51,540 nucleotides of DNA from Escherichia phage brachmannus: the sequence record ON711395.1; one strand, given 5' to 3'. Within the stretch, counting starts at the first letter, position 1. The number at the start of each line of letters is the position of its first letter. The notes under the pieces were generated by a model. It did no database searches. It was not told the origin of the DNA and was given only the letters and a program-made list of their open reading frames with translations. The translations under genes were made by a program, and so were the position numbers. Positions 8,147 through 36,246 of this stretch are shown piece by piece.

Positions 8147-8566
8147 ATGGTAGATGAATTTTACACAGACGCTGAAATCGTTCAGCAAATCGTAAAGTTA
8201 GCGCCGCCAATGCAACAAGTTGATCCCGATTTAATTGTGGCATGGATTGAGCTTGCTAAAGAGTTTGTTTGCAAAAAGCGGTTTAAAAACTCATACCCGA
8301 AAGCGGTTGCGCTTTACACTCTTCATCTTATGACCTTAGACGGGGCAATGAAACAGGAAGGTGAAAGCGTAGAAAGCTATTCCCGCCGCGTCGCCTCGTT
8401 CACTCTGACTGGTGAGTTTAGTCAGACGTTTGATCGAATCTCTTCCGATACAAGCGGAAAGCAGATCCGACAAACGCCGTGGGGCAAAATGTACGAAGTG
8501 TTAAACCGTAAGCACGGTGGCGGTTTTGGCCTTGTAACTGGATTACGCCGGAGATGTTGCCTATGA
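8147..8566 (+). CDS. putative head-tail connector protein
   Basis: ATG 8147 with GGAG RBS (track start 8084 alternative); position between capsid and tail genes. Confidence 0.4.
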
Positions 8567-8934
8567 ACTACAATGAGATTGCAAGAATGGCTACGGCTGG
8601 GATTAACTTTTTCAGCGATGCTAACGGTATGTTTAAGTGCATCACGCAGCAGGGAGGGGTTGAGATTATCGGCGGAGAGGAAGTTACCAAGCCGGAGATT
8701 TCAGTGATGATAAAGGGGCTTGTTAGATCTCCGAGGACTAGAGAGGTTGACGGTGAAACAATCCGAGTAACCGACAAATTGGGGATATTCACCAATGAAA
8801 CTGAGATCAAAAATGGTTATCAGATTGAAATTGATGGCGAACGTTATGTTGTCGTTGAAGCAAGGCCAGTCAGGCAGACTAACATCACGGCGGCTTATCG
8901 TCCGATATTAAGGAGGATTGCTGTGCATGGCTGA
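8554..8934 (+). CDS. putative head-tail joining protein
   Basis: 126 aa, overlapping starts and stops with neighbours (translational coupling). Confidence 0.4.
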
Positions 8935-9370
8935 TAACTATAAGATCAGGGAATTTCACGGTGATATAAGCAGGTGGATTGATTCAGTAAGCAGCGGCCT
9001 TGTTGATTGCGTTGAAATGTTCGCGACAAACGTCCACGAGGATCTTGTAAATCGCTCGCCAGTTGATACGGGCCGATATAAAGCCAACTGGCAGATAACA
9101 GCAAACAAGCCGCCGCTGTATGCGCTCAACCAATACGATCGCGATGGTAGTAAAACCATTGCAGAAGGCAAGCGAGCAATATATGCAATCATGCGTGGTG
9201 GTGGCGCGGTGCGGTCAATCTATTTTTCAAACATGCTCATTTACGCCAATGCGCTTGAATACGGTCATTCAAAACAAGCGCCGTCCGGCGTACTTGGAAT
9301 CGTGGCGGTAAAGCTGCGATCTTATATGGCTAAGGCAATAAAGGATTCGAGGGCAAAAAATGCACTATGA
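8927..9370 (+). CDS. HK97 gp10-like neck / tail-completion protein
   Basis: ATG 8927 after AGGAGG (track start 8918 is TTG); SPVDTGRYKANW motif reminiscent of HK97 gp10 family. Confidence 0.45.
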   Translation: MADNYKIREFHGDISRWIDSVSSGLVDCVEMFATNVHEDLVNRSPVDTGRYKANWQITANKPPLYALNQYDRDGSKTIAEGKRAIYAIMRGGGAVRSIYFSNMLIYANALEYGHSKQAPSGVLGIVAVKLRSYMAKAIKDSRAKNAL

Positions 9371-11199: not shown

Positions 11200-13881
11200 A
11201 TGGCTGAAAAATACGCTGGCCTAACGCTAGGCGTTGACGTGTCGCAGGTCAACAATGCTGTTAAATCATTGCAGCAATTCAAGAAGGCAAACGACGACGC
11301 AAAAAAAAGCGTTAATGAATTTGTTGATTCTGAGGTTGTGGCCCGACAGCAAGCAAAACAGCTTGCCGAAGAACTGGCGCGCCAGAAAGCAGAATTTAAG
11401 AAAATCCAGGAGTCAATTGATCCCACCGCATCAAAGATGGATAAGCTGAGAAAGGCAGCGACACAGCTTGATGCGCTATGGAAAAAGGGCGTTGTTCCTG
11501 ATCAGACTTTTTTTGAGCTTGGGGCAATTCTTGAGACGCAGCAAAACAAGCTGATCGCAACAAAAAAAGCGATGACAGAGGAAGGCCGCGCGGCGCTTGA
11601 GGAATCAAAGAACAAGGCGCGTGCAGCGGAAGAGGCTAAAAAATTCGTCCAGGCTTTGCGTGAGCAGGAAGAAGCAGCAGGAAAAAGCAAGTCTGAATTG
11701 CTGGAAATGAAAGCGGCACAGCTTGGAGTTAGCCAGGAGGCAGCACCTTACATCGCAAGGCTGAAAGAGCAGGAAAAGCAGATCCAGAAACTTGGGATTT
11801 CTACAGGCCAATACAAACAAGCAATGGCGCAATTGCCAATGCAGATCACAGACGTGGTGACTTCACTTGCTTCTGGTATGCCCGTTTGGTTGGTCGCAGT
11901 CCAGCAGGGTGGACAGATCAAGGATTCTTTTGGTGGTGCATCCAATGCTTTAAAGGCGTTGCTATCTTTCCTGAATCCAGTAAACGTGGCGTTTGGCTTG
12001 CTTTCCGGCACGATGGCAATTGCTGCATATAATTCCTACAAAGCACAGACAGAGCTTGAGGCAATTAAAAAAACCGTTCAGGAAACAACTGGCTTGAGTG
12101 GTGAGTTTGCCGAAAAGATTGCTATAGGAATCCAGGAGCTTTCCGACAAGACAGGCGAAAGCGCCGAAGATCTGGCAAAGGCTTACATAACAACGAAAGA
12201 CGGCGCGAGCGAGGCGATTAAAAAACTGGTTGACGTTGGAATGACTTATGATGACGCAAAAAAGAAAGTCAACGAGTACAAGGGCGCGTCTAGCTTTGTC
12301 AGCTTGAATAACGAAATTGCAAACCACAAAAACAAAGTCCTTGAGTTGGGTGAGTCGTGGTATGAAGTTTTGAAAGCTAAGCGTGATTACGCTTCCCCGT
12401 CCGGCGGCCTGTTAGGTAAAGAGCTTGGCTATGTTAATCCTATGCTTAAGTTTGCACTTAACACTTATGAAGACATTGGAAAGGTCGTAAAAGATGCGAA
12501 TAAGGACATGGCGGAACGAGCGGAGCGAATCGACAAAGAAAACCTGTCATTAAACAGAGTGCGAGCGGCGCAAGAGGCTTTAAACAAAGCCATTGAGGAT
12601 CAGAAGGGCGTGGCGCGTTCTGCTGATGAAGAACTGAAAAAGCGCGCGGCTGAAAACGTGGAGTTCAGACGCAAAGAGCTTGAGGAGATCAAGAAGCAGG
12701 AGCAGAAAAAGAAAGAGGCTAAAGGGGGAATAGTTCGCGGCCCTACTGAGCAGCTTGATAAAGAGTTGTACGTTTTAAAAGCGCAACTGGAAACTCTTAA
12801 AGAGCATCGCACTGTTAACGATGTTATTTCTCGCCAGCGTAAATCTTTATGGAGCATCGAAAAGCAGATCGAGATCCTGGAGAATGCGCAGAGCAAGCGG
12901 AAATTGACGGGAGCGGAACAGGCGCTACTAAACGAGCAAAAAGCCGTTCTTGAAATGGCAAGGCAAAAAGCTGAGCTAGGGGATCAGATTGTTTTGCAGG
13001 AGCGCAAAAACAAGCTGGAGCAAGATAGTCTTAAGTTTATCCGTGAAACGGAGGCGGCTATTGATGCGATTGGCCTTAAGCAACTTGGCTACACTGAAAA
13101 GCAGATCGAGCGTGAGCTAGAGTTACGCAAGCTGCGCACCGACTACGAGGCGCAAGGCGGAAGCGTTAGCGACGAAGTTTTTCAGCAAATGGAGACGAAA
13201 CTTAAGCTGTATTACCAGGCGCAAGACGAGGCGCAAGGAAACTGGTTAGCCGGAGCAAAGAACGCATGGGAGCTATTCGCGGAAGATGCAAACAATGCCT
13301 ATGGCAATGTTCAGCAGATTGCAAGCGAGGCGTTAAACGGCCTTACAAACCAATTAGCGAATTTTATCGCTACTGGCAAGGCAAACTTTAAAGACTTCTC
13401 GACTGCTATCATCAAAATGATTATTCAGATGATCACGAAAATGGTTGTCTTTAATGCGTTATCTGGCCTGATGGGTGGTCAAACCTGGACGATGGGGAGC
13501 TTGCTTAAGAATATTGGCGGATTTGCTGGCGGTGGATATACTGGCGACGGCGGGAAGTATGAGCCAGCCGGAATTGTTCATAAGGGTGAATTTGTCATGA
13601 CGAAGGAGGCAACGCAGCGTATCGGAGTAGGCAACTTGTACCGCATGATGCGAGGCTATGCTAACGGCGGCGTTGTTGGTGGTTCCGGCTATACTGGCGG
13701 TGGCACTGTCACTGGTGGAGCACCTCAATTTAACATCGGTGGGATTGATGTTAGCATCAATAACGGCAATGATCCGAAGGGTATCGAAACTGGTGTTAAG
13801 ATGATCTTTACTGATATGATTAGACGTTCCTGTATGCAGGGCGGGGAGGTTTACGAATTTGTTATGAGCAAGCGAGGTTGA
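11200..13881 (+). CDS. tail tape measure protein
   Basis: 893 aa, long coiled-coil, Gly-rich C-terminal region, canonical position. Confidence 0.9.
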   Translation: MAEKYAGLTLGVDVSQVNNAVKSLQQFKKANDDAKKSVNEFVDSEVVARQQAKQLAEELARQKAEFKKIQESIDPTASKMDKLRKAATQLDALWKKGVVPDQTFFELGAILETQQNKLIATKKAMTEEGRAALEESKNKARAAEEAKKFVQALREQEEAAGKSKSELLEMKAAQLGVSQEAAPYIARLKEQEKQIQKLGISTGQYKQAMAQLPMQITDVVTSLASGMPVWLVAVQQGGQIKDSFGGASNALKALLSFLNPVNVAFGLLSGTMAIAAYNSYKAQTELEAIKKTVQETTGLSGEFAEKIAIGIQELSDKTGESAEDLAKAYITTKDGASEAIKKLVDVGMTYDDAKKKVNEYKGASSFVSLNNEIANHKNKVLELGESWYEVLKAKRDYASPSGGLLGKELGYVNPMLKFALNTYEDIGKVVKDANKDMAERAERIDKENLSLNRVRAAQEALNKAIEDQKGVARSADEELKKRAAENVEFRRKELEEIKKQEQKKKEAKGGIVRGPTEQLDKELYVLKAQLETLKEHRTVNDVISRQRKSLWSIEKQIEILENAQSKRKLTGAEQALLNEQKAVLEMARQKAELGDQIVLQERKNKLEQDSLKFIRETEAAIDAIGLKQLGYTEKQIERELELRKLRTDYEAQGGSVSDEVFQQMETKLKLYYQAQDEAQGNWLAGAKNAWELFAEDANNAYGNVQQIASEALNGLTNQLANFIATGKANFKDFSTAIIKMIIQMITKMVVFNALSGLMGGQTWTMGSLLKNIGGFAGGGYTGDGGKYEPAGIVHKGEFVMTKEATQRIGVGNLYRMMRGYANGGVVGGSGYTGGGTVTGGAPQFNIGGIDVSINNGNDPKGIETGVKMIFTDMIRRSCMQGGEVYEFVMSKRG

Positions 13882-13883
13882 TA

Positions 13884-14234
13884 ATGAAGCTGGATCAGTT
13901 TAAGTGGTGTACGCAGGTTCAGAACGGCGGCGGGGCAATGACGTCATCGAATAACGATCGAGAGATTGCATTCGGTAACGGATACACACAGGTAGCATCT
14001 GGAGGTTTTAACACAATCCGGCGAGAGTTTAGCATTGTTTACGCTGGGCTTGATTACAGAGATGTTGTCAAGTTCCTGAATGAGCACAGGCTAAAGCCTT
14101 TCTTGTGGATCATGCCTGATGGAAGCCCTGGATTGTTCAGGGTGAAAAGCGGCAGCGTCGGCCTTACTCCACTGTCGCCAACCGTTCAGGAAGTAAAAGC
14201 CACTTTTACGGAGCAATTTACATCAATGCAATAA
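13884..14234 (+). CDS. minor tail protein (lambda M-like)
   Basis: about 116 aa directly after tape measure (track start 13878 is TTG); followed by terminator. Confidence 0.6.
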   Translation: MKLDQFKWCTQVQNGGGAMTSSNNDREIAFGNGYTQVASGGFNTIRREFSIVYAGLDYRDVVKFLNEHRLKPFLWIMPDGSPGLFRVKSGSVGLTPLSPTVQEVKATFTEQFTSMQ

Positions 14235-14296: not shown

Positions 14297-15058
14297 ATGG
14301 CTAATAAAGAATCAGGTAGAGTTGAATTTGAGAACTGCCTACAAAGTTTGTACCCAGGAGAAATTATAACGCTTGTAGAGATTGACGGGACGAAGTTCGG
14401 AGCAAATATTTACCGATTTCACAATGAGAACATCTCTTATACTGCCGAGGAATTAATGCAAGCGCAGCAAACCGGAATCTTGCCGCCGAAAGATATTATT
14501 TTCCAGGGTGAGGTTTACGGAGCGCGGCCTTTCGGTGTGAGCGGGATTAACTTCACAAGTAACGGCAGGGCAGATAAGCCTCAGCTTATAGTGTCAAACC
14601 TTGACAGCAGGGTTAGCGCCATGATCAGAAATTACAATGGCATGATGCAAGCAAAGGTGACTTTCTGGATCACGGCAAAGGAATTTATCGGAGAAGGCGG
14701 GGCAATCAAAGATGGCGCTTACAGAAAATTGGTTTATTACATTGAGCGCCCAAGCCAGTATAATAGAGAGGTGGCGAAATTTGATCTGACGTCGCCTTAC
14801 GATATGGATGGACTGATGATCCCGCCGCGCATCACTCAAAGCGTTTGCTATTGGGCGCAAAGGGGGTGGTACAGGAGCGGAAAGGGTTGCTCTTATAACG
14901 GATCGGCAATGTTCGATAAAGACAATAAGCCAGTAACAGATCCATCGCAAGACTATTGCGCAGGAACTGTAACGGCTTGCAAATTGAGATTCGGTCAGCA
15001 AAACGAGTTGGATTTCGGCGGTTGCGCGGTGGCGTCACTGCTACGGAGGAATCAATAA
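14297..15058 (+). CDS. minor tail protein (lambda L-like)
   Basis: 253 aa with C-terminal cysteine cluster as in lambda gpL Fe-S site; synteny M-L-K-I-J. Confidence 0.7.
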   Translation: MANKESGRVEFENCLQSLYPGEIITLVEIDGTKFGANIYRFHNENISYTAEELMQAQQTGILPPKDIIFQGEVYGARPFGVSGINFTSNGRADKPQLIVSNLDSRVSAMIRNYNGMMQAKVTFWITAKEFIGEGGAIKDGAYRKLVYYIERPSQYNREVAKFDLTSPYDMDGLMIPPRITQSVCYWAQRGWYRSGKGCSYNGSAMFDKDNKPVTDPSQDYCAGTVTACKLRFGQQNELDFGGCAVASLLRRNQ

Positions 15059-15789
15059 TGATTAGTGCAAAAATTAAACTTGAAATAATGCAGCACGTTA
15101 AAGAGGAATACCCTAAAGAGGCTTGCGGCGTCATAACTCAAAAGTCACGGGTACAGAAATATCACCGCATAACCAACGTGCATGACGATCCAGAAAATCA
15201 TTTTGAAATGGACGCCGTAGAATACGCTGAATCGCTCGACAAAGGCGAATTAATCGCGGTGGTGCATTCCCATTGCGGTGATGGTGCTAGTACGATACCG
15301 AGCGCGCACGACTCATGTATGTGCGATGAAATGGGTGTGTCGTGGATTATAGTGTCATGGCCCGAAGGTGATATGAGAATTGTCGAGCCGCAGGAGAGGC
15401 AGCTTATCGGTCGACCGTGGTCGCTTGGGTCGTTCGATTGCTGGGGTCTTATCATGGCGTGGCATAAACAGCACGGAGTAGTATTGAATGACTTCCGAAA
15501 GCCTTACGAGTGGTGGAAGTCAGAATATGGTGAAAATCTTTACCAGGATAATTATTTGAAAGAGGGATTTGTTGAAACTAACGAACCTCCAAAACCTGGT
15601 GATATGGTGATTATGCAGCTATCATCGCCAGTCTGGAATCATGCGGGGATTTATTTGGGTAACAATCAGCTATTACATCATGCGTTTGGAAAGCTATCTC
15701 GCATTGACTTGTATTCTGGATGGTATCAGGAGCACACTGTGAAAATTTGCCGACATAAGGATCTGAAATATGACATTGAAAGTAATTAA
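15058..15789 (+). CDS. tail tip protein (lambda K-like; JAB/MPN + NlpC/P60 domains)
   Basis: ATG 15058 overlaps stop of L gene; HSH...D JAMM-like motif and Cys/His NlpC/P60-like motifs (DCWGL, HAGIY). Confidence 0.75.
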   Translation: MISAKIKLEIMQHVKEEYPKEACGVITQKSRVQKYHRITNVHDDPENHFEMDAVEYAESLDKGELIAVVHSHCGDGASTIPSAHDSCMCDEMGVSWIIVSWPEGDMRIVEPQERQLIGRPWSLGSFDCWGLIMAWHKQHGVVLNDFRKPYEWWKSEYGENLYQDNYLKEGFVETNEPPKPGDMVIMQLSSPVWNHAGIYLGNNQLLHHAFGKLSRIDLYSGWYQEHTVKICRHKDLKYDIESN

Positions 15790-16366
15790 ACTATCTGGTT
15801 CCCTGGGGCGTAGATTTGGCGTCTTTCACAAAATGGCGGTTGACTCATACCCCGAAGCAATACGCGCGTTATCTTCCCAGGTTGACGGGTTCAAAGACTA
15901 CATGCAAAGCGAAGTTGGATCGCGCATGAAGTATGCTATATTCGTTGACGGTAAAAACATTGGTCAGCATGATGAAAAATCATGGAAGTGCGCGCGAGAG
16001 GTTAGAATAGTTCCTGTTCCAACTGGTTCTAAGTCCGGCGGCCTGTTCAATGTTGTTTTTGGTGCTGTAATTATGGCTACTGCGTTCATTACTGGCGGTG
16101 CAAGCCTGGCGGCTATGGGCGCTTTTGCATCTTCCGCATTTATGATGGGTGGTGCTATCGCGCTTGGCGGTGTCATGCAAATGATCTCACCGCAGCAGGG
16201 CGGAATAAAACTGCAAAGCCAATCAGCAGAAAACAAGCCTTCTTACGCTTTCGGCGGCGCAGTAAATACCACGGCGGCAGGCTATCCGGTTCCTTTGCCA
16301 TATGGATATAGGACAGTAGGCGGCGCGATCTGGTCGGCTGGCAGCTACGCAGAGGACAAAGCATAA
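15770..16366 (+). CDS. tail assembly protein (lambda I-like)
   Basis: 198 aa with glycine/alanine-rich hydrophobic C-terminal half; synteny. Confidence 0.7.
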   Translation: MTLKVIKLSGSLGRRFGVFHKMAVDSYPEAIRALSSQVDGFKDYMQSEVGSRMKYAIFVDGKNIGQHDEKSWKCAREVRIVPVPTGSKSGGLFNVVFGAVIMATAFITGGASLAAMGAFASSAFMMGGAIALGGVMQMISPQQGGIKLQSQSAENKPSYAFGGAVNTTAAGYPVPLPYGYRTVGGAIWSAGSYAEDKA

Positions 16367-16367
16367 A

Positions 16368-16386
16368 TAGCACAATATGTTAAAGC
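16368..16386 (+). promoter_or_regulatory. conserved motif variant TAGCACAATATGTTAAAGC + 8-bp hairpin + TACAAT upstream of HNH gene
   Basis: same cassette architecture as early-gene copies. Confidence 0.5.
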
Positions 16387-16427
16387 GAAAACGGATTTTC
16401 GCTTTACAATTAATTAAGGAGATGATC

Positions 16428-16904
16428 ATGTGGCGTGATATTTTTTATTATAATGACGGTAAGTTATTTTGGGCTGTAGACGTAGGAAGAAGGATAAAGA
16501 AAGGAAGTGAGGCAGGAAGCGTAAGCAAAAGCAAGAAGAGTGGAGAAAGGGTTAGAATATCAATTGATGGAGAAAGATACTACAGGAGCAGGATAGTTTG
16601 GGAAATTCATAATGGAGAAATACCGCATGGAATGCAAGTTGATCACATAGATCACAACACAATGAACGACAATATTTCAAACTTAAGACTTGTTAGAATG
16701 AGTGTTAACAACAAGAATAAGTCGCTTTACAGGAACAGCAAGACGGGAATTACTGGGGTAAACTTTAGTCGCGGAAAATGGATTGCAAGAGCAAAGATTG
16801 ATGGTGTTAGGCATGAATTTTACTTTGATTCATTTCAGGATGCGGCAGAAAAGAGGATAGAGATTGAAGTTTTAAACAAATTCCACATAAACCACGGAAA
16901 GTAG
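16428..16904 (+). CDS. HNH homing endonuclease with AP2-like DNA-binding domain
   Basis: HNH motif VDHIDHN...NLRL; AT-rich with AGA/AGG arginine codons unlike surrounding genes; inserted between tail genes I and J; paralog at 35773-36246. Confidence 0.8.
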   Translation: MWRDIFYYNDGKLFWAVDVGRRIKKGSEAGSVSKSKKSGERVRISIDGERYYRSRIVWEIHNGEIPHGMQVDHIDHNTMNDNISNLRLVRMSVNNKNKSLYRNSKTGITGVNFSRGKWIARAKIDGVRHEFYFDSFQDAAEKRIEIEVLNKFHINHGK

Positions 16905-16907
16905 ATT

Positions 16908-16933
16908 TAACCAGCATTGCGCTGGTTTTTTTG
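16908..16933 (+). terminator. intrinsic terminator after HNH gene
   Basis: AACCAGC-ATTGC-GCTGGTT then T7. Confidence 0.65.
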
Positions 16934-16981
16934 TGCATTTATAATGAGCAAACCAATAAACAGCACAAAAGGTTAAAAGTC

Positions 16982-19900
16982 ATGGATAAATGTATGATAA
17001 GTGGCAGTAAGGGCGGAAGCAAAAAGCCATACGTGCCAAAAGAGATGGAAGATAACCTGATCTCGATAAACAAGATTAAAGTTTTGCTGGCTGTATCTGA
17101 TGGCGAGTGCGATCCAGACTTCACGTTGCGTGATCTTTATCTTGATGATGTTCCGGTTATTGCCAGCGATGGCACTGTTAACTATGAGGGGGTAACGGCT
17201 GAATATAGACCAGGTACACAGACGCAAGATTACATCCAGGGGTTTACTGACACATCAAGCGAGGTGACAGTTTCGCGAGATATTACAGCAGACAATCCCT
17301 ATATTATCTCTGTAACAAATAAAAATCTTTCTGCAATCAGAATCAAGATTCTGATGCCAGTTGGCATAAAACAGGAGGATAACGGCGATCTTGTTGGTGT
17401 AAGGGTTCAATATGCCGTAGATATGGCTGTTGATGGCGGTTCTTATAGCGAGGTTATGAGAGATGTAATTGACGGCAAGACAAGATCAGGATATGACCGC
17501 AGCAGAAGGATTGATCTTCCTAAGTTTGATGAGCGCGTTTTAATCAGGGTCAAGCGGCTGACTCCAGACAGCACATCTTCAAAGGTGACTGATAAAATCA
17601 AACTGCAAAGTTACGCTGAGGTTGTGGATGCAAAATTCCGTTATCCTCTGACTGGCCTTGTATTCGTAGAGTTTGACAGCGAATTGTTTCCTACGCAAAT
17701 CCCTAACATTTCTATAAAAAAGAAATGGAAGATTATTAATGTGCCAAGCAACTATGATCCAATATCTAGAGAATATCACGGGTCATGGGATGGGACTTTT
17801 AAAAAAGCGTGGTCAAATAATCCTGCTTGGGTTCTTTATGATCTGGTAACGAATCAGCGTTATGGACTTGACCAGCGAGAGTTAGGAATACAGATCGACA
17901 AGTGGAGCTTATACGAGGCTGGTGTTTACTGTGATCAGAAAGTTCCAGACGGTAAGGGCGGTACAGAGCCTCGCTACCTATGCGATGTGGTGATCCAGAA
18001 TCAGGTTGAGGCTTATCAGCTAATCCGTGACATTTGCTCAATCTTTCGCGGAATGAGCTTTTGGAATGGAGAGAGCTTATCAATCGTAATTGATAAACCG
18101 CGCGATCCATCATACGTGTTTACTAATGAAAACGTCATCAACGGTGATTTTCAGTACACAGCAGCAAGCGAAAAAAGCATGTACACGCAATGTAATGTGA
18201 CGTTTGACGACGAACAAAACATGTATCAGCAGGACGTAGAGGGGGTTTTTGATACTGAGGCGGCATTACGATTTGGATACAATCCAACAAGCATTACAGC
18301 GATCGGGTGTACACGCAGGAGCGAAGCGAATCGTCGCGGTCGGTGGGTTTTGAAAACAAACCTTAGAAGCACTACTGTAAACTTTGCTACCGGACTAGAG
18401 GGGATGATTCCATCCATAGGTGATGTGATTGCTATCGCTGATAATTTTCAGAGCAGCAATCTAACGTTAAATCTTTCGGGCCGAGTAATGGAAGTTTCAG
18501 GCTTGCAAGTTTTCGTTCCGTTTAAGGTTGATGCGCGTCCTGGTGATTTTATTATCATCAACAAGCCGGACGGAAAGCCAGTTAAGCGAACGATCTCAAA
18601 GGTGAGCGCAGACGGAAAAACCATTGAGTTAAATATTGGCTTTGGTTTTGATGTTAAGCCTGATACTGTTTTTGCGATTGACCGTACTGACCTTGCGTTG
18701 CAGCAATACGTTGTGACAACTATCAGCAAGGGTGATGACGAAAACGAGTTTACCTATTCAATCACGGCTGTGGAGTACGATCCGAACAAATACGACGAGA
18801 TTGATTATGGAGTAAACATTGATGACAGACCGACTTCAATTGTTCAGCCTGACGTGATGGCAGCGCCTGAGAACGTTAAGATCTCATCTTATTCTCGCGT
18901 CGTGCAGGGTGTTAGCGTTGAGACTATGGTTGTTTCATGGGATAAGGTTCCTTACGCATCGCTTTATGAAATGCAGTGGCGAAAAGGTGATGGTAACTGG
19001 CTGAATACGCCGCAGACAGCTAACAAAGAGATAGAGGTAGAAGGGATTTACTCTGGCAACTACCAAGTAAGGGTGAGATCCGTTTCTGCAAGCGGTAACG
19101 CTTCCCCGTGGTCAAAGATTGCAACCGCCACTCTGACAGGTAAAGTTGGCGAGCCAGGAGCGCCGATTAATCTTACGGCTTCTGATAATGAAGTTTTTGG
19201 CATTCGTGTCAAATGGGGTATGCCGGAAGGATCGGGCGATACGGCTTACATTGAGCTTCACCAATCGCCAGATGGGACGGTGGAAAACTCAAGTTTGCTT
19301 ACGCTGATCCCGTATCCTCAATATGAGTATTGGCATAGCACGTTACCAGCGGGTCAAGTTGTATGGTATAGAATCCGTAGCGTTGACAGGATCGGCAACG
19401 TTTCCGGCTGGACTGACTTTGTTCGCGGCATGGCGTCAGATGATGTTGAATCTGTTTTAGGCGACATTCTGGACAAGATTTTTGATACCGAAGCGGGTCA
19501 AGAAATCAAAGAGAACGCCATAGACAGTGCAAACAAAATCAAAGACCAGGCGCAATCAATCATCCAGAACGCATTGGCAAACGATGCCGATGTGAAGTGG
19601 ACGCGAGTACAAAACGGAAAGCGTAAGGCTGAATATGGTCATGCACTGGAGCTTATTGCTACCGAAACGGAGGCGCGAGTAACTCAAATCGAAGAGTTAA
19701 AGGCGTCAATTGATGAAGATATAGTTTCAAGTATCAAAACCGTTCAGGAAGCGATTGCCAATGAATCAGAGACGCGAGCTACTCAAGTGCAGCAGCTTGA
19801 TTCTAAATTTACGAAGGAAATAGACGGCGTAAAACGAGATACGGCTGCAAGCATTGGCGAGGTAAGGCAAACCATTACCAATGAATCAGAAGCGCGTGCG

Positions 19901-20560
19901 CAAGCCGTTCAGCAGCTTGACGCTAAGTTTTCGAAAGAGATTAATGACCTTAACGATGCAATCAAGGTTGATGTTGAGGCGAACATATCAGAAGTAAGAC
20001 AGGCTATCGCTAATGAGACAGAGGCAAGGGTTCAGGCTGACCAGGCTTTAACAGCCAAATTCGGAGACGTTGAATCAGCACTAGCCGAAAAACTTGATTC
20101 GTGGGCTAACGTTGATTCTGTTGGCGCTAAGTACGCTATGAAATTGGGCCTTACTTACAAGGGGCAGAAGTACAGCGCAGGAATGATCATGCAGTTGTCG
20201 CAATCTTCTCAAGGCCTGATCTCGCAAATCTTGTTCGATGCTAACAGGTTCGCGATCATGACTAGCTCTACTGGCGGTACGTTTACATTGCCGTTTGTAG
20301 TAGAAAATAACCAGGTGTTTATCAACAGTTTGTTGGTGAAAAACGGGTCCATTACTAACGCAATGATTGGTAACGTGATTCAGTCAAATAACTTTGTTCA
20401 GAATCAGCAAGGATGGAGGCTTGATAAAAATGGTAACTTTGAGAACTACGGAACGAGAGCGGGGGAAGGAGCTACAAAATTCACTAACGAAGGCTTAAAG
20501 GTGAAAGATGCAAATGGACGATTGAGGGTTGAGATAGGGAGAATAACCGGAAGTTGGTAA
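16982..20560 (+). CDS. central tail fibre / host specificity protein (lambda J-like)
   Basis: about 1190 aa; N-terminus GSKGGSKKPYVPKEMEDNL resembles lambda J N-terminus; alternative start ATG 16994; C-terminal coiled-coil repeats. Confidence 0.85.
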   Translation: MDKCMISGSKGGSKKPYVPKEMEDNLISINKIKVLLAVSDGECDPDFTLRDLYLDDVPVIASDGTVNYEGVTAEYRPGTQTQDYIQGFTDTSSEVTVSRDITADNPYIISVTNKNLSAIRIKILMPVGIKQEDNGDLVGVRVQYAVDMAVDGGSYSEVMRDVIDGKTRSGYDRSRRIDLPKFDERVLIRVKRLTPDSTSSKVTDKIKLQSYAEVVDAKFRYPLTGLVFVEFDSELFPTQIPNISIKKKWKIINVPSNYDPISREYHGSWDGTFKKAWSNNPAWVLYDLVTNQRYGLDQRELGIQIDKWSLYEAGVYCDQKVPDGKGGTEPRYLCDVVIQNQVEAYQLIRDICSIFRGMSFWNGESLSIVIDKPRDPSYVFTNENVINGDFQYTAASEKSMYTQCNVTFDDEQNMYQQDVEGVFDTEAALRFGYNPTSITAIGCTRRSEANRRGRWVLKTNLRSTTVNFATGLEGMIPSIGDVIAIADNFQSSNLTLNLSGRVMEVSGLQVFVPFKVDARPGDFIIINKPDGKPVKRTISKVSADGKTIELNIGFGFDVKPDTVFAIDRTDLALQQYVVTTISKGDDENEFTYSITAVEYDPNKYDEIDYGVNIDDRPTSIVQPDVMAAPENVKISSYSRVVQGVSVETMVVSWDKVPYASLYEMQWRKGDGNWLNTPQTANKEIEVEGIYSGNYQVRVRSVSASGNASPWSKIATATLTGKVGEPGAPINLTASDNEVFGIRVKWGMPEGSGDTAYIELHQSPDGTVENSSLLTLIPYPQYEYWHSTLPAGQVVWYRIRSVDRIGNVSGWTDFVRGMASDDVESVLGDILDKIFDTEAGQEIKENAIDSANKIKDQAQSIIQNALANDADVKWTRVQNGKRKAEYGHALELIATETEARVTQIEELKASIDEDIVSSIKTVQEAIANESETRATQVQQLDSKFTKEIDGVKRDTAASIGEVRQTITNESEARAQAVQQLDAKFSKEINDLNDAIKVDVEANISEVRQAIANETEARVQADQALTAKFGDVESALAEKLDSWANVDSVGAKYAMKLGLTYKGQKYSAGMIMQLSQSSQGLISQILFDANRFAIMTSSTGGTFTLPFVVENNQVFINSLLVKNGSITNAMIGNVIQSNNFVQNQQGWRLDKNGNFENYGTRAGEGATKFTNEGLKVKDANGRLRVEIGRITGSW
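19640..20060 (+). repeat. intragenic tandem repeats (three units of about 35 codons) in J-like gene
   Basis: protein repeats I(A/T)NE(S/T)E(A/T)R...VQQLD(S/A)KF(T/S)KEI. Confidence 0.6.
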
Positions 20561-20586: not shown

Positions 20587-21201
20587 TTAATCATAGTGCG
20601 ATGAATTTATAACCAAAACAGATGATGCCGTGTAAATACCAACAGGACCAGGAGTTTGCGCAACCTGCCTAGATAAAGAATATACCCCGTTGCCATACGC
20701 GGCAGCTTGAGACTCAAATATCATGAATCCACCTAAAGACGGATTGGGCACAGAGTTTAAAGCTGTTAGTGATGGCATGATGGCGCAAGGGTATCCCAAG
20801 TTAACGTCAAAAGCGATCCCGCTTACAGATACAAGTTTTGCATCCAAAGGCTTCATCTTTCCATGATAAACCATCTCACCATTAGCATTATAAAAAGCTA
20901 TTCCGTGACTACCAGGAGGAGTAACCATGTTGCTAAAAGCATAAACAAATACCTCGCCTTGATTGTCGGACTTTTCTATCTTTATTGCGTGCTTCCCACC
21001 ATTATTAAACTGAGTAAATGCTATGTATGATTTTGATGTTAACCTTACAAAAAAGAAGCACGGTCTATTTATTGGTATAGAAGTATTAAAAACGGTTCCT
21101 GTTCTTGCTGATATTTTCCCTTTATCTATAAGGTTAACAGGAGTGAAATCTGGACTTAACCACAATGAACCGTCCGGTTTTTTTATGCTCATCCCGTACA
21201 T
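20587..21201 (-). CDS. hypothetical protein (possible tail fibre-associated)
   Basis: ORF on minus strand; ATG at 21199-21201 with GGGGG RBS-like run (track start 21213 is TTG). Confidence 0.4.
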   Translation of the reverse strand: MYGMSIKKPDGSLWLSPDFTPVNLIDKGKISARTGTVFNTSIPINRPCFFFVRLTSKSYIAFTQFNNGGKHAIKIEKSDNQGEVFVYAFSNMVTPPGSHGIAFYNANGEMVYHGKMKPLDAKLVSVSGIAFDVNLGYPCAIMPSLTALNSVPNPSLGGFMIFESQAAAYGNGVYSLSRQVAQTPGPVGIYTASSVLVINSSHYD

Positions 21202-21203
21202 TA

Positions 21204-21482
21204 TTACCCCCAAAAAGTATATATATATCTTGAGTCAGATCCAGAAAGGCCACTCCATGTAACGGTATCACCACTTACACCCAACTTTGGAGCGCCTGGA
21301 TCGCCTCCTCGCCACGAATTAATTCCAACATATATTGCTTTCAAAGACTTACCTGGCGGCCTGTTTGAGTAGGTCTTACTGCCGGATGATTGGGTAAATT
21401 TATCCAAGAAAAAAACTGGAGTTAAAAGACCAGTAACATTTCTACCTTGCTCATCATATATTGCATACCCATATTCAGCCAT
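21204..21482 (-). CDS. hypothetical protein
   Basis: 92-aa ORF with GAGGTG RBS; ends in T5G5 homopolymer region abutting downstream ORF. Confidence 0.4.
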   Translation of the reverse strand: MAEYGYAIYDEQGRNVTGLLTPVFFLDKFTQSSGSKTYSNRPPGKSLKAIYVGINSWRGGDPGAPKLGVSGDTVTWSGLSGSDSRYIYTFWG

Positions 21483-21750
21483 TTTTGCACCTCAAATCAA
21501 TGAATTTTCTTTCATCTTGCCAACGGTTGATAAATTTAACTTCTTTATTGTCAACGCTCAACCTGTATTGCTTTTGGCTGAATCTGTTTTCGCGGACAGC
21601 ATTAATTTTAACTTCATGGAATCCGTTAACAGGGAATGTTTTAACGTTAAATTTTGCCGTGCAATCGATCTCCTTGAAGTTGCCAGTAGGCGAAGAAGAA
21701 CATCCGGTCAGAGCGGCTACGGTGGCGATAACTGCGATTAATTTTTTCAT
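21475..21750 (-). CDS. lipoprotein, candidate Cor/Llp-like superinfection exclusion protein
   Basis: signal peptide with lipobox LTGC; AAGGAG RBS; small size; located next to tail fibre genes with own promoter region. Confidence 0.45.
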   Translation of the reverse strand: MKKLIAVIATVAALTGCSSSPTGNFKEIDCTAKFNVKTFPVNGFHEVKINAVRENRFSQKQYRLSVDNKEVKFINRWQDERKFIDLRCKNG

Positions 21751-21806
21751 CTTCAATACTCCTTAGTTGTTGTTGGCTGTAACTATACACGATCCGACAA
21801 GCTGAG

Positions 21807-21823
21807 TTTAGCAAAAAGTGCTA
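21807..21823 (-). promoter_or_regulatory. conserved motif variant + TATAGT upstream of lipoprotein gene (minus strand)
   Basis: minus strand reads TAGCACTTTTTGCTAAAC, TATAGT 21 bp after TTGCTA. Confidence 0.55.
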
Positions 21824-22193
21824 CTTGTTATTTTTTGTTTTCCAGTGTTATCGAATTTAAGACGGCGCAAATTTGGCGCAAATTTTAACCAACACAAGAG
21901 CAATAAACAACCAATAAAATAGATATATGCATATAAAATCAATAGTTTATTTATTTATGTATGTATATTTGTTTTTTCTTGTTATCTGTGTTTCTTGTGG
22001 TTTTGGTTGTTTGTGGTGATTTTTCTTTCTGAGTATCTGCATGTGCCATCATTCATGTGTATGTATATAATCCGGCGTATCTGAGAGAACAAGGGAACAA
22101 GAAAAATAACACATGTTAATCATTAACTTACGTGTCAGATTTGTTTTCTTGCCATCTGAGAACGTTTAGAAAACAGAAAAAACAAAACAACTA

Positions 22194-22221
22194 TTGACTA
22201 AATCAACCAAATGGCTACAAT
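22194..22221 (+). promoter_or_regulatory. sigma70-like promoter TTGACT-16-TACAAT upstream of recombination module
   Basis: near-consensus hexamers about 30 nt upstream of GAGGAG RBS of 22252 gene. Confidence 0.6.
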
Positions 22222-22251
22222 GCACACACAAAGCAACGAGGAGCATTAAAG

Positions 22252-23307
22252 ATGAGTGATTTTAACGCCTATACTAGCGAAGAAATGAGCAATGAGCTTT
22301 ATCATGATCCTAGCGCGTGGACGGCTGAATACGTCAGCGGTTCCAGCCTGGCGGAGATTTACAGCACTTGCCCGGCGTACTGGAAGTACAAACCTCGCCA
22401 GGAAACCAAAGCACTTGTTTTCGGTACGCAGTCGCATACCAATTTTGAAAGCAAGGAGTTATTCGAAAAAACATATCGCCGCGCACCGTCGCAGGATGAC
22501 TTTAAAGATCTGATCACAAGCCAAACGGCGTTAGCTGCAAAGCTGAAATCTTTTGGCCTGAAAGGTACGACGGGTAAGCAGTATCCAGAATTGCTGGAAA
22601 TGCTGTACAAGTGCGGTGAGGATCTCAATGTATGGTGGCTTATCGAAATGATGGCAGAATGCCAGGCCGCAGCGGACGGCGTGCAGTTAATCGACGCGAA
22701 AGATTATGATGCCTGTGTAGCGATGCGGCGCGTACTTGAGGCAATACCTGAGCATAATGCTTGCATGAATAGCCCAACCGCGCAGCGTGAAATGTCAATA
22801 TTCGGGATCATCAATGGCGTAAAAGTTAAAGTGCGCCTTGATCACGTTGACGTAAACAAGGATGTAAAGGCCACAATCATTAACGGTTACGACGAAAAAG
22901 GCCGACCGATTTATGAAGAAGTCATATATCCAGAAGCTGTGATTATAACTGACTATAAAACAACGGTTAGCGCAAATCCGGTTGACTTCCAGCGCCTGGC
23001 TTACAATCACGGCTATTATCTCAAAATGGCTTTGCAACATGATTTATTCAAAAAGGCGTATCCAGACGAGGAAAGACCAGTAATTGTGAGATTGCTTGCT
23101 CAAGAGAAGAAAGATCCTTACTTGCCGCTCGCATTCCGCATGAACATTGAGCAATTGAAGATTGGGCGTATCCAGTACATGAGCGTGATCAATAAGTTCA
23201 ATGTTTGCCAGAAGTTAGATGAATGGCCTTCGTATGCAAACGGGCAGCCAGAAATTGATCTTGATACTCCTGATTGGGTGCGCGCTCAATTCAGGCAGTA
23301 TCTATAA
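22252..23307 (+). CDS. PD-(D/E)XK recombination exonuclease (RecE/RecB-nuclease-like)
   Basis: 351 aa; motifs VRLDHVD and IITDYKTT and QRLAYNHGYY match RecB-family nuclease motifs; first gene after strong promoter; upstream of erf and ssb. Confidence 0.6.
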   Translation: MSDFNAYTSEEMSNELYHDPSAWTAEYVSGSSLAEIYSTCPAYWKYKPRQETKALVFGTQSHTNFESKELFEKTYRRAPSQDDFKDLITSQTALAAKLKSFGLKGTTGKQYPELLEMLYKCGEDLNVWWLIEMMAECQAAADGVQLIDAKDYDACVAMRRVLEAIPEHNACMNSPTAQREMSIFGIINGVKVKVRLDHVDVNKDVKATIINGYDEKGRPIYEEVIYPEAVIITDYKTTVSANPVDFQRLAYNHGYYLKMALQHDLFKKAYPDEERPVIVRLLAQEKKDPYLPLAFRMNIEQLKIGRIQYMSVINKFNVCQKLDEWPSYANGQPEIDLDTPDWVRAQFRQYL

Positions 23308-35603: not shown

Positions 35604-35783
35604 TTCGATACGCTTTACAGTAACCAACAAAACGCCGTCTTCATCACACAAATTATGCTCTGATATATCAAACGCTCGCATGTCAGAATGAATGAGCGTT
35701 AACATTGCGTGCATGAAGTCGTCATGTGAGATTTGAGAAGTGGCGCAAAATTTAAGAATTTCATCTATCAGTTTACTTTCCAT
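35601..35783 (-). CDS. hypothetical protein
   Basis: about 60 aa from internal ATG (MESKLIDE...). Confidence 0.35.
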   Translation of the reverse strand: MESKLIDEILKFCATSQISHDDFMHAMLTLIHSDMRAFDISEHNLCDEDGVLLVTVKRIE

Positions 35784-36246
35784 GATTTTTGTGGTAGCCA
35801 AATTTAACCTCCGCCTGTTCCCTTGCCTTAATTGCATCATCAAGACTTAAAAAATATCCTAAATGCACGCTCTTACCGTTATCATATATAGTTGCGTGCC
35901 ATCTTTTGTTTTTCTTATTCCAGCAAACACCAACTCGACCAGAGTTATTTCTTTTTAGTAGAGATACGTTTTTGCTGTTATCTAATCTTGATGCAAGCCT
36001 TAGATTTTCAATTCTGTTATCGCTCCTATTGTGCCATATATGGTCTATTTCCATTCCTTCTGGTATTTTTCCATTGTGCATTTCCCATATTATCCTATGC
36101 GCCAAAAACAATACACCATTATACCTTATTCTCACATATCCATTTTCACATACACATCCCGCAACGCTTCCAGGCTTTGCTTTCCCTCTTCTGTTTCTCC
36201 ATCTCAATATTCCATTGTCATATATAAATACTTCATTCCAATCCAT
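35773..36246 (-). CDS. HNH homing endonuclease with AP2-like domain (paralog of 16428-16904)
   Basis: EIDHIWHN...NLRL HNH motif; AT-rich, AGA/AGG codons; similar to first HNH gene. Confidence 0.8.
   Translation of the reverse strand: MDWNEVFIYDNGILRWRNRRGKAKPGSVAGCVCENGYVRIRYNGVLFLAHRIIWEMHNGKIPEGMEIDHIWHNRSDNRIENLRLASRLDNSKNVSLLKRNNSGRVGVCWNKKNKRWHATIYDNGKSVHLGYFLSLDDAIKAREQAEVKFGYHKNHGK

What the first reader, a model, noticed from the sequence alone, without database searches (positions are those of the whole stretch)
16367..16933. HNH-AP2 homing endonuclease inserted between tail genes I and J
An HNH-AP2 gene with its own motif-hairpin leader and terminator interrupts the otherwise contiguous lambda-like M-L-K-I-J tail module. 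Its codon usage is AT-rich with AGA/AGG arginine codons, unlike neighbouring genes, which points to a recently acquired mobile gene.
Basis: partly seen in the sequence, partly recalled or inferred. Interest (0 to 1): 0.5.

Follow-up and report, generated by a model that had tools for sequence, protein, structure and literature searches.

The report
Mobile HNH-AP2 endonuclease gene between tail genes
A small selfish nuclease gene of a well-known kind (a free-standing HNH-AP2 homing endonuclease) sits between tail genes I and J of this T1-like E. coli phage; close relatives lack it or carry broken copies, so it is real and recently acquired, but ordinary.

Summary

Of 105 related phage records, 11 (7 phages) carry the cassette. 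Two phages (3 records) carry a 323-bp frameshifting deletion remnant. Every other listed record spanning the junction lacks it; the eleven empty junctions read (7 GenBank, 4 IMG/VR) have a short spacer (7 nt in ten) before the terminator.

Among carriers the cassette is almost invariant (5/542 segregating sites, against 43/597 in I and 68/600 in J). Their flanks often match HNH-less phages best. Three terminator substitutions travel with the cassette in 20/20 occupied alleles.

GC is 0.375 against 0.445 for the genome, and 13/15 arginine codons are AGA/AGG. This is a recently spread homing-endonuclease cassette showing invasion and decay. Cleavage and the target site remain untested. Interest is low.

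The parts
15770..16366 (+). Tail assembly gene I, the left flank. Its stop codon TAA at 16364-16366 abuts the cassette.
   Evidence: Pfam Lambda_tail_I E=1.8e-21. Annotated as tail assembly protein in relatives.
16354..16357 (+). Two synonymous substitutions in the last codons of I (GAGGAC here, GAAGAT in empty alleles) that usually travel with the cassette.
   Evidence: Fixed between 10 occupied and 7 empty GenBank alleles. One metagenomic carrier of ten (L035) has the empty-type GAAGAT.
16367..16427 (+). Cassette leader. It holds a perfect 11-bp hairpin (16381-16406) and a Shine-Dalgarno AAGGAG (16416-16421). No promoter was detected.
   Evidence: No variation among the 10 metagenomic carriers; 2 variable sites (16421, 16422) among the GenBank carriers.
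16428..16904 (+). HNH-AP2 endonuclease ORF of 158 aa. The HNH_3 domain covers aa 51-95 (nt 16578-16712). The AP2-like three-strand-plus-helix domain covers aa ~105-150 (nt ~16740-16877).
16513..16844 (+). Segment bounded by the 9-nt imperfect repeats CAGGAAGCG (16513-16521) and CAGGATGCG (16836-16844). Recombination between them removed 323 bp in phages tonn and ityhuna, leaving a frameshifted 38-aa stub.
   Evidence: Alignment A1; stub annotation in tonn and ityhuna; sequence.
16909..16934 (+). Intrinsic terminator (AACCAGC-ATTGC-GCTGGTT plus a T-run), a cassette-linked variant of the resident gene-I terminator. Positions 16913, 16916 and 16923 differ from all empty alleles, and 16913/16923 form a compensatory stem pair.
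   Evidence: Terminator scan; fold -9.8 against -10.0 kcal/mol for the empty allele; linkage in 20/20 occupied and 0/11 empty alleles.
16363..16384 (+). Left copy of an imperfect 22-nt direct repeat (19/22). Its partner at 16956-16977 lies in the J leader.
   Evidence: the repeat finder D1. First-order Markov simulations reach 19/22 in 0.3% of runs and 18/22, the value inferred for most other carriers, in 3.3%.
16956..16977 (+). Right copy of the 22-nt repeat, in the J leader and present also in empty alleles.
16982..20560 (+). Tail tip / host-specificity gene J, the right flank.
   Evidence: Pfam FNIII-A_GpJ, Phage-tail_3 and Phage_Tail_Tip. The start was mapped from annotated relatives.

Best explanation
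This is a free-standing homing-endonuclease gene cassette. A ~545-bp unit (leader hairpin, ribosome-binding site, 158-aa HNH-AP2 nuclease, variant terminator) occupies the 7-nt spacer between the stop codon of tail gene I and its terminator.

Proposed mechanism, with the status of each step:
- Expression (inferred). No promoter is seen in the cassette, and the gene points the same way as the tail genes. It is therefore most likely transcribed late by read-through from the tail operon and translated from its own Shine-Dalgarno sequence.
- Protein architecture (shown at the level of sequence and predicted structure). An I-HmuI-like His-Me (HNN-type) nuclease core is joined to a C-terminal AP2 DNA-binding domain.
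- Homing (inferred). In a co-infection with an HNH-less Warwickvirus the enzyme nicks or cuts the empty I-J junction, or DNA close to it. Recombinational repair from the HNH+ genome then copies the cassette in, with very short co-converted flanks (at most ~36 bp on the left and ~28 bp on the right).
- Self-immunity (inferred). The three terminator substitutions that always accompany the cassette are the best candidates for the changes that protect the carrier from its own enzyme. The paired 16913/16923 change keeps the terminator stem intact.
- Decay (shown). Internally deleted and split copies exist in relatives.
For: Presence/absence at one fixed site: 11 records (7 phages) have the intact cassette and 2 phages have a remnant. 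All other listed records spanning the junction lack it, and the eleven empty junctions read base by base are compact. The exact protein occurs on at least 116 contigs, and all 10 shown lie in the I-J site.

The cassette is younger than its flanks. Segregating sites are 5/542 against 43/597 in I (Fisher 3e-8) and 68/600 in J (9e-15). Pi is 0.002 against 0.029 and 0.053. The metagenomic carriers show pi of 0 in the leader against 0.028 and 0.069 in the flanks.

Backgrounds are discordant. For 6 of 8 carriers the closest K+I flank belongs to an HNH-less phage. atuna differs from HNH-less B1.2 by 0.2% just right of the cassette. Divergence shifts near the junction in atuna/B1.2 and JLBYU10/Poky.

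Substitutions that track the cassette lie only at its edges.

Decay: a 323-bp microhomology deletion and 90-aa plus 63-aa members sharing a 47,042-bp longest contig, suggestive of a split gene.

Composition is foreign.

Precedent: HNH-AP2 is a recognised HEG family in phages, including T1 and Rtp, with a gain-and-decay pattern (PMC2248197; PMC10448857).
Against: No cleavage, target-site or co-infection data exist; homing is inferred from population patterns only.

Low cassette diversity is partly expected even without homing. The flanks can import variation from the many HNH-less phages, and the cassette cannot.

Mosaic breakpoints occur all along these genomes, so the shifts near the junction are not statistically distinguished.

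One carrier (L035) has the empty-type I end, so the two left-hand substitutions cannot be essential for immunity.

I-HmuI-type enzymes nick one strand (established knowledge), so a classical double-strand-break pathway is not assured.

Pfam AP2 does not score this sequence alone.
Confidence: 0.8

Rival explanations
1. Passive passenger. The gene was inserted once by illegitimate recombination and has since been shuffled among Warwickviruses by ordinary homologous recombination. Its nuclease plays no part in the spread. It may be inactive, or it may serve another role such as degrading competitor or host DNA.
For: These phages are highly mosaic everywhere. The flanks of carriers vary to within ~30 bp of the cassette. 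An imperfect 22-nt repeat brackets the cassette, terminator and promoter segment, which could mark a non-homing origin.
Against: The ORF is kept intact and identical on more than 100 contigs. The catalytic residues are conserved. A neutral passenger at a site where deletion is easy (tonn, ityhuna) would not be expected on so many different backgrounds with almost no divergence.
Confidence: 0.12
2. Ancestral resident. The gene was present in the Warwickvirus ancestor and has been lost repeatedly, so the HNH-less state is derived.
For: Decay intermediates exist. Precise loss by recombination with empty alleles is possible.
Against: Cassette diversity is 13- to 50-fold below that of its flanks. 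The empty junctions read base by base are uniform and scar-free. A more diverged IMG/VR relative (L022) also has the CCCGCC-type terminator and no cassette. No phage outside these few carries a protein more than 60% identical. GC and codon use are foreign.
Confidence: 0.05
3. Domesticated functional HNH. The nuclease is a working part of the phage, for example a packaging cofactor like HK97 gp74 or a tail-module accessory.
For: Some phage HNH proteins are terminase cofactors (discussed in PMC10448857).
Against: The gene is absent from most close relatives that are viable isolates. It is not next to the terminase. It belongs to the HNH_3 plus AP2 homing type rather than the small gp74-type HNH. 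Frameshifted copies persist in plaque-forming phages tonn and ityhuna.
Confidence: 0.02

Closest known systems
HNH(HNN)-AP2 free-standing endonucleases of phages (Magnani et al. 2004 family; Xanthomonas phages Xp10/OP1/Xop411; copies reported in T1, Rtp, T5, RB43; ICP1 'IPA-HNH')
   Same: N-terminal HNH_3/HNN nuclease plus C-terminal AP2 domain, about 160 aa. Intergenic and free-standing. Patchy distribution among close relatives. Truncated or degenerate copies exist (PMC2248197, PMC10448857).
   Different: At most ~43% identity to any phage protein outside the few Warwickvirus carriers. This copy occupies a single defined site, the I-terminator spacer. The Xoo phage copies were described as dispersed without conserved flanks. 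ICP1 IPA-HNH domains are too divergent for Pfam HNH_3, whereas this one scores well.
I-HmuI (Bacillus phage SPO1 intron-encoded HNH endonuclease, PDB 1U3E)
   Different: I-HmuI lies inside a group I intron and has a different C-terminal DNA-binding module, not AP2. Identity is 18-22%. It is a strand-specific nickase (established knowledge); whether this protein nicks or cuts both strands is unknown.
T4 free-standing homing endonucleases (Mob and Seg families)
   Same: An intergenic selfish gene between conserved genes, with spread by co-infection and gene conversion. Immunity of the carrier comes from sequence differences near the insertion point (established knowledge; general pattern also in PMC10448857).
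   Different: Mob proteins pair HNH_3 with a zinc finger, and Seg proteins are GIY-YIG. None has AP2. No experimental evidence exists here.
Plant and apicomplexan AP2/ERF DNA-binding domains (AtERF1 2GCC, TEM1 7ET4, WRI1 7WQ5)
   Different: Those proteins are transcription factors without a nuclease. This sequence alone is below the Pfam AP2 threshold.

Membership tests
HNH_3 / His-Me finger endonucleases (PF13392) | Score above the Pfam gathering threshold | tested here: met
   57.5 bits against a cutoff of 24.8, E=1e-15, aa 51-95.
HNH_3 / His-Me finger endonucleases (PF13392) | Catalytic and metal-binding residues of the beta-beta-alpha-metal motif (the D-H...N...N of I-HmuI) present | tested here: met
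   D72, H73, N85, N94 and N97 are invariant in the 21-sequence family alignment. The same profile columns align to VDHKDGNKDNNLSTNLRWVTQKINVEN of I-HmuI. The roles of these residues come from knowledge of I-HmuI, not from a test here.
HNH_3 / His-Me finger endonucleases (PF13392) | Fold similar to a solved HNH homing endonuclease | tested here: met
AP2 DNA-binding domain (PF00847) | Pfam AP2 hit on the protein itself | tested here: not met
   No AP2 hit even at E<=10. The in-window paralog scores 22.3 bits against a cutoff of 33.3.
AP2 DNA-binding domain (PF00847) | Homology at family-profile level, and the three-strand-plus-helix fold | tested here: met
Homing endonuclease gene (free-standing) | Presence/absence polymorphism at one homologous site among close relatives | tested here: met
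Homing endonuclease gene (free-standing) | Element younger than, and phylogenetically discordant with, its flanks | tested here: met
Homing endonuclease gene (free-standing) | Degenerate copies, as expected from the invasion-decay cycle | tested here: met
   323-bp deletion in tonn and ityhuna. Truncated cluster members.
Homing endonuclease gene (free-standing) | Site-specific cleavage of the empty allele and resistance of the occupied allele | not testable with these tools
   Needs purified protein and junction DNA.
Homing endonuclease gene (free-standing) | Nuclease-dependent super-Mendelian inheritance in mixed infection | not testable with these tools
   Needs phage crosses, for example atuna x PeterMerian.

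The most novel reading that the evidence does not exclude
The homing site is the intrinsic terminator of tail gene I itself. The AP2 domain would read the G+C-rich stem, CCCGCC/GCGCGGG in empty alleles, which resembles the GCC-type sites that AP2 domains prefer. Carriers would escape by a compensatory stem change (C-G to A-T at 16913/16923) plus a loop change (16916). These changes would remove recognition while keeping termination. That would be an example of a selfish nuclease and a transcription signal co-evolving in about 15 bp.
Probability: 0.2. Interest if true: 0.4.

Novelty: new member of a known kind. Interest (0 to 1): 0.2.

Why it matters
Its main value is as a clean, well-sampled natural example of the homing-endonuclease life cycle in small T1-like coliphages. 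Intact, decayed and empty alleles are all present in culturable phages: atuna, orkinos and mar001J1 (intact), tonn and ityhuna (decayed), and BASEL Bas05 PeterMerian (empty).

It also gives a narrow, testable guess at the target, namely three terminator positions. The cassette lies directly upstream of the host-range gene J. If it promotes recombination there, it could influence how J alleles are exchanged.

In practical terms, such cassettes should be masked in Drexlerviridae phylogenies. None of this changes current understanding of HNH-AP2 homing endonucleases.

Tried and rejected
- Leader as a repeated genomic motif: rejected. The hairpin and its 5' sequence occur once in the window. The short AYAGCACAAWA core is not over-represented (10 matches against 5.1 expected, and 8 of 100 shuffles reach 10).
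- Own promoter: none was found in 16367-16427.
- Single-sequence search of solved structures: nothing. The family profile was needed.
- Pfam AP2 on the single sequence: no hit.
- Nucleotide-level donor search: outside Warwickvirus, only ~70-82% matches over ~65-130 nt of the HNH motif region in other siphophage HNH genes. No donor was identified.
- Literature: no paper combines 'Warwickvirus' and 'HNH'. Drexlerviridae papers mention homing endonucleases only generically.
- Whole-gene codon adaptation (self-CAI): not an outlier, so only GC and Arg-codon choice support a foreign origin.
- The 323-nt spacing of a 10-nt repeat (D4) equals the length of the tonn deletion. It lies elsewhere and is coincidental; the true deletion endpoints are the CAGGA(A/T)GCG repeats.

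Full report
**What the window is.** Megablast of 15700-17600 finds 105 phage records. The best are Escherichia phages of the genus Warwickvirus (Drexlerviridae, Tempevirinae; T1-like siphophages) at 95-98.5% identity. The window's length of 51,540 bp matches a whole genome of this genus. Pfam confirms the lambda-like tail-tip module:
- M: 13878-14234, Phage_min_tail.
- L: 14297-15058, Phage_tail_L.
- K: 15058-15789, JAB plus NlpC/P60.
- I: 15770-16366, Lambda_tail_I.
- J: 16982-20560, FNIII-A_GpJ, Phage-tail_3 and Phage_Tail_Tip.

**The observation.** An ORF lies between I and J (16377-16904 by the mechanical list). The likely start is ATG 16428, six nt after AAGGAG at 16416-16421. Most annotated relatives use this start, giving 158 aa.

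Upstream is a perfect 11-bp hairpin at 16381-16406 (-10.8 kcal/mol). Downstream is an intrinsic terminator at 16909-16927 followed by a T-run. No sigma-70-like promoter was found in the leader.

The composition deviates from the genome:
- GC is 0.375 against a genome value of 0.445. That is z about -2.5 among 62 ORFs and in the lowest 3.3% of 477-nt windows.
- 13 of 15 arginine codons are AGA/AGG against 30% genome-wide (binomial P=8e-6).
- Overall self-CAI (0.774 against a mean of 0.793) is not unusual.
- Gene L also uses many AGR codons (10 of 15), so 'unlike neighbouring genes' is only partly right.

**The protein.** Pfam HNH_3 scores 57.5 bits against a cutoff of 24.8. PHROG 99, 'HNH endonuclease', gives E=4e-49. 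Pfam AP2 does not hit this sequence, even at E<=10.

The AP2 call therefore rests on other evidence:
- In an alignment with 19 database homologs and an in-window paralog, 9 of 21 members hit PF00847.
- The family profile hits I-HmuI (1U3E) at 3.5e-9 and the AP2 domains of WRI1 (1.2e-4) and TEM1 (0.028).
- An AlphaFold2 model (pLDDT 86) ends in three strands plus a helix, residues 111-150.

D72, H73, N85, N94 and N97 are invariant in the family. They align with the DH...N...N motif of I-HmuI. HNH-AP2 is therefore supported, with the caveat that the single-sequence Pfam test for AP2 fails.

**The insertion site.** I aligned the junction with relatives. I then aligned about 9.9 kb from 16 GenBank Warwickviruses.

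Empty alleles read: ...GCAGAAGATAAAGCATAA | AAAAATA | CCCGCCTTGCGCGGG-T7-GTGCATTTATAATG... . The gene I stop codon is followed by a 7-nt spacer and then the terminator.

Carriers read: ...GCAGAGGACAAAGCATAA | ATAGCAC...(leader, HNH)...GTAGATTTAA | CCAGCATTGCGCTGG-T7-GTGC... .

The cassette therefore spans about 16367-16910, roughly 544 bp. It replaces 7 nt, for a net gain of 537 bp, which matches the 1901 against 1364 nt spans.

Across the whole 9.9 kb only five positions separate the 10 occupied alleles from the 7 empty ones, and all five hug the cassette:
- 16354 and 16357, which are synonymous changes in the last codons of I.
- 16913, 16916 and 16923 in the terminator. 16913 and 16923 form a compensatory stem pair, and the predicted stability is unchanged (-9.8 against -10.0 kcal/mol).

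Ten metagenomic carriers all have the terminator variant. One of them (L035) has the empty-type I end. Four IMG/VR contigs are all empty and all of CCCGCC type, including a more diverged relative (L022). The terminator variant is thus linked in 20/20 occupied alleles and 0/11 empty alleles.

**Distribution and age.** The intact cassette is in 11 records, which represent 7 phages: atuna, orkinos, JLBYU01, JLBYU10, mar001J1, Phunderstruck and Kalemo. Every other listed record that spans the junction lacks it.

tonn and ityhuna carry a 323-bp internal deletion between CAGGAAGCG (16513-16521) and CAGGATGCG (16836-16844). It removes the catalytic core and shifts the frame, leaving a 38-aa stub.

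The 90% protein cluster also holds 90-aa and 63-aa members that share a 47,042-bp longest contig. This suggests a split gene, but I did not inspect that contig.

tblastn shows nothing between 60% and 80% identity in 50,697 phage records, and one record I did not identify at 80-90%. The next relatives are about 43% identical. The exact protein is on at least 116 contigs, and all ten shown lie in the I-J site of ~50-kb contigs.

Among the 8 carriers (7 GenBank phages plus the window), the cassette has far less variation than its flanks:

| Region | Segregating sites | Fisher P vs cassette | Pi |
|---|---|---|---|
| Cassette | 5/542 | - | 0.002 |
| Gene I | 43/597 | 3e-8 | 0.029 |
| First 600 nt right of the cassette (terminator, leader and J 5' end) | 68/600 | 9e-15 | 0.053 |

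The metagenomic carriers were selected for an identical protein, so only the leader is an unbiased measure there. They show pi of 0 in the 61-nt leader, against 0.028 in I and 0.069 in J.

The flanks of carriers are frequently closest to HNH-less phages. For example, atuna and B1.2 differ by 0.2% in 16930-18200, and JLBYU10 and Poky by 0.6% in K+I. In these two pairs the divergence level shifts near the junction.

The cassette is therefore younger than the diversity of its flanks, and it sits on several backgrounds.

One caveat applies. Flanks can import diversity from the large HNH-less pool and the cassette cannot. The contrast therefore overstates the age difference somewhat.

**Mechanism.** The best-supported reading is a free-standing HNH-AP2 homing endonuclease:
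- The gene is co-transcribed late with the tail genes and translated from its own Shine-Dalgarno sequence.
- The protein nicks or cuts the empty I-J region of a co-infecting relative.
- Recombinational repair then copies the cassette in, with very short conversion tracts.
- The carrier is protected by cassette-linked substitutions. The three terminator positions are the best candidates, because the two I positions are dispensable in L035.

The shown parts are the architecture, the polymorphism, the youth of the cassette, the discordant backgrounds and the decay. The inferred parts are expression by read-through, cleavage, the target and immunity.

Literature precedent supports this kind of element:
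- HNH/HNN-AP2 genes are a recognised phage HEG family. Multiple copies occur in T1, Rtp, T5 and RB43, and a gain-then-degenerate pattern has been described (PMC2248197).
- HNH-AP2 HEGs and nuclease genes mark boundaries of genetic exchange in other phages (PMC10448857).

I found no paper on this particular element.

**Rivals.**
- A passive passenger shuffled by ordinary recombination (0.12) cannot be excluded without crosses.
- An ancestral resident undergoing repeated loss (0.05) is disfavoured by the low cassette diversity, the uniform scar-free empty sites, the empty outgroup and the foreign composition.
- A domesticated functional HNH (0.02) is disfavoured by its absence or frameshift in viable isolates.

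**Unexplained detail.** A 22-nt imperfect direct repeat links 16363-16384 with 16956-16977 (19/22). It brackets the cassette, terminator and promoter-like segment. The right copy is the J leader and is present in empty alleles. First-order Markov simulations reach 19/22 in 0.3% of runs. They reach 18/22, which I infer for most other carriers from the 16957 polymorphism, in 3.3% of runs. It may be a trace of how the cassette first arose, or it may be chance.

**Verdict.** The element is a new, uncharacterised member of a well-known kind. The identical protein is already annotated 'HNH endonuclease' in RefSeq for atuna and mar001J1. Interest is low (0.2). The most novel reading still open is that the terminator itself is the homing site, with a compensatory escape change in its stem.

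Noticed in passing
window 35773-36246 (- strand): A second HNH-AP2 paralog of 157 aa, 42% identical to the first. GC is 0.363 and 14 of 15 Arg codons are AGR. Pfam HNH_3 gives E=8e-22 and AP2 gives 22.3 bits, below threshold. It is also patchy: 99% identical only in phage tonnikala, ~84% in the BEK7 group, and most relatives carry other sequence at that site. None of the listed records carries both cassettes.
   Followed up: partly
L004 (Escherichia phage BEK12A) 2168-2352; window equivalent 16360-16980: BEK12A and BEK26 have a different, non-coding I-J spacer about 107 nt longer than the empty allele. It has its own terminator-like hairpin and TATAAT box. The I-J spacer therefore seems to be a variable hot spot.
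   Followed up: no
L005 (phage vB_EcoS_XY3) 1571-2294: Gene I is annotated as two overlapping ORFs, and the matched span is ~127 nt longer than in empty-site relatives. This suggests an insertion, duplication or frameshift inside I.
   Followed up: no
L035 (ENA ERZ28587751 contig) ~2415-2439: One metagenomic carrier combines the cassette and the variant terminator with the empty-type GAAGAT end of gene I. A recombination junction therefore lies within about 10 nt of the cassette's left edge.
   Followed up: partly
window 16422: The window alone has A instead of G in the spacer after the Shine-Dalgarno sequence (AAGGAGATGATCATG, against AAGGAGGTGATCATG in most other carriers). This creates an extra in-frame ATG two codons upstream of the start. 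mar001J1, tonn and ityhuna instead have AAGGAT at 16421.
   Followed up: no
window 20587-22300 (- strand genes) and L014/L015/L020 ~8368-9300: The region downstream of J is the lowest-GC part of the window (down to 0.32 near 21720-22300). It encodes small reverse-strand proteins annotated in relatives as outer-membrane or Cor superinfection-exclusion proteins. PeterMerian, B1.2 and SLUR29 carry different forward-strand genes there, which indicates a module swap.
   Followed up: no
window 19600-20560: The 3' end of J (Phage_Tail_Tip, the receptor-binding end) is hypervariable among relatives: pi is 0.12-0.18, against 0.02-0.05 in the rest of the tail module.
   Followed up: no
GenBank MG0656xx 'Campylobacter phage' records: About 18-20 records labelled as Campylobacter jejuni phages match this E. 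coli Warwickvirus-like tail region at 60-80% nucleotide identity. The host assignment looks doubtful.
   Followed up: no
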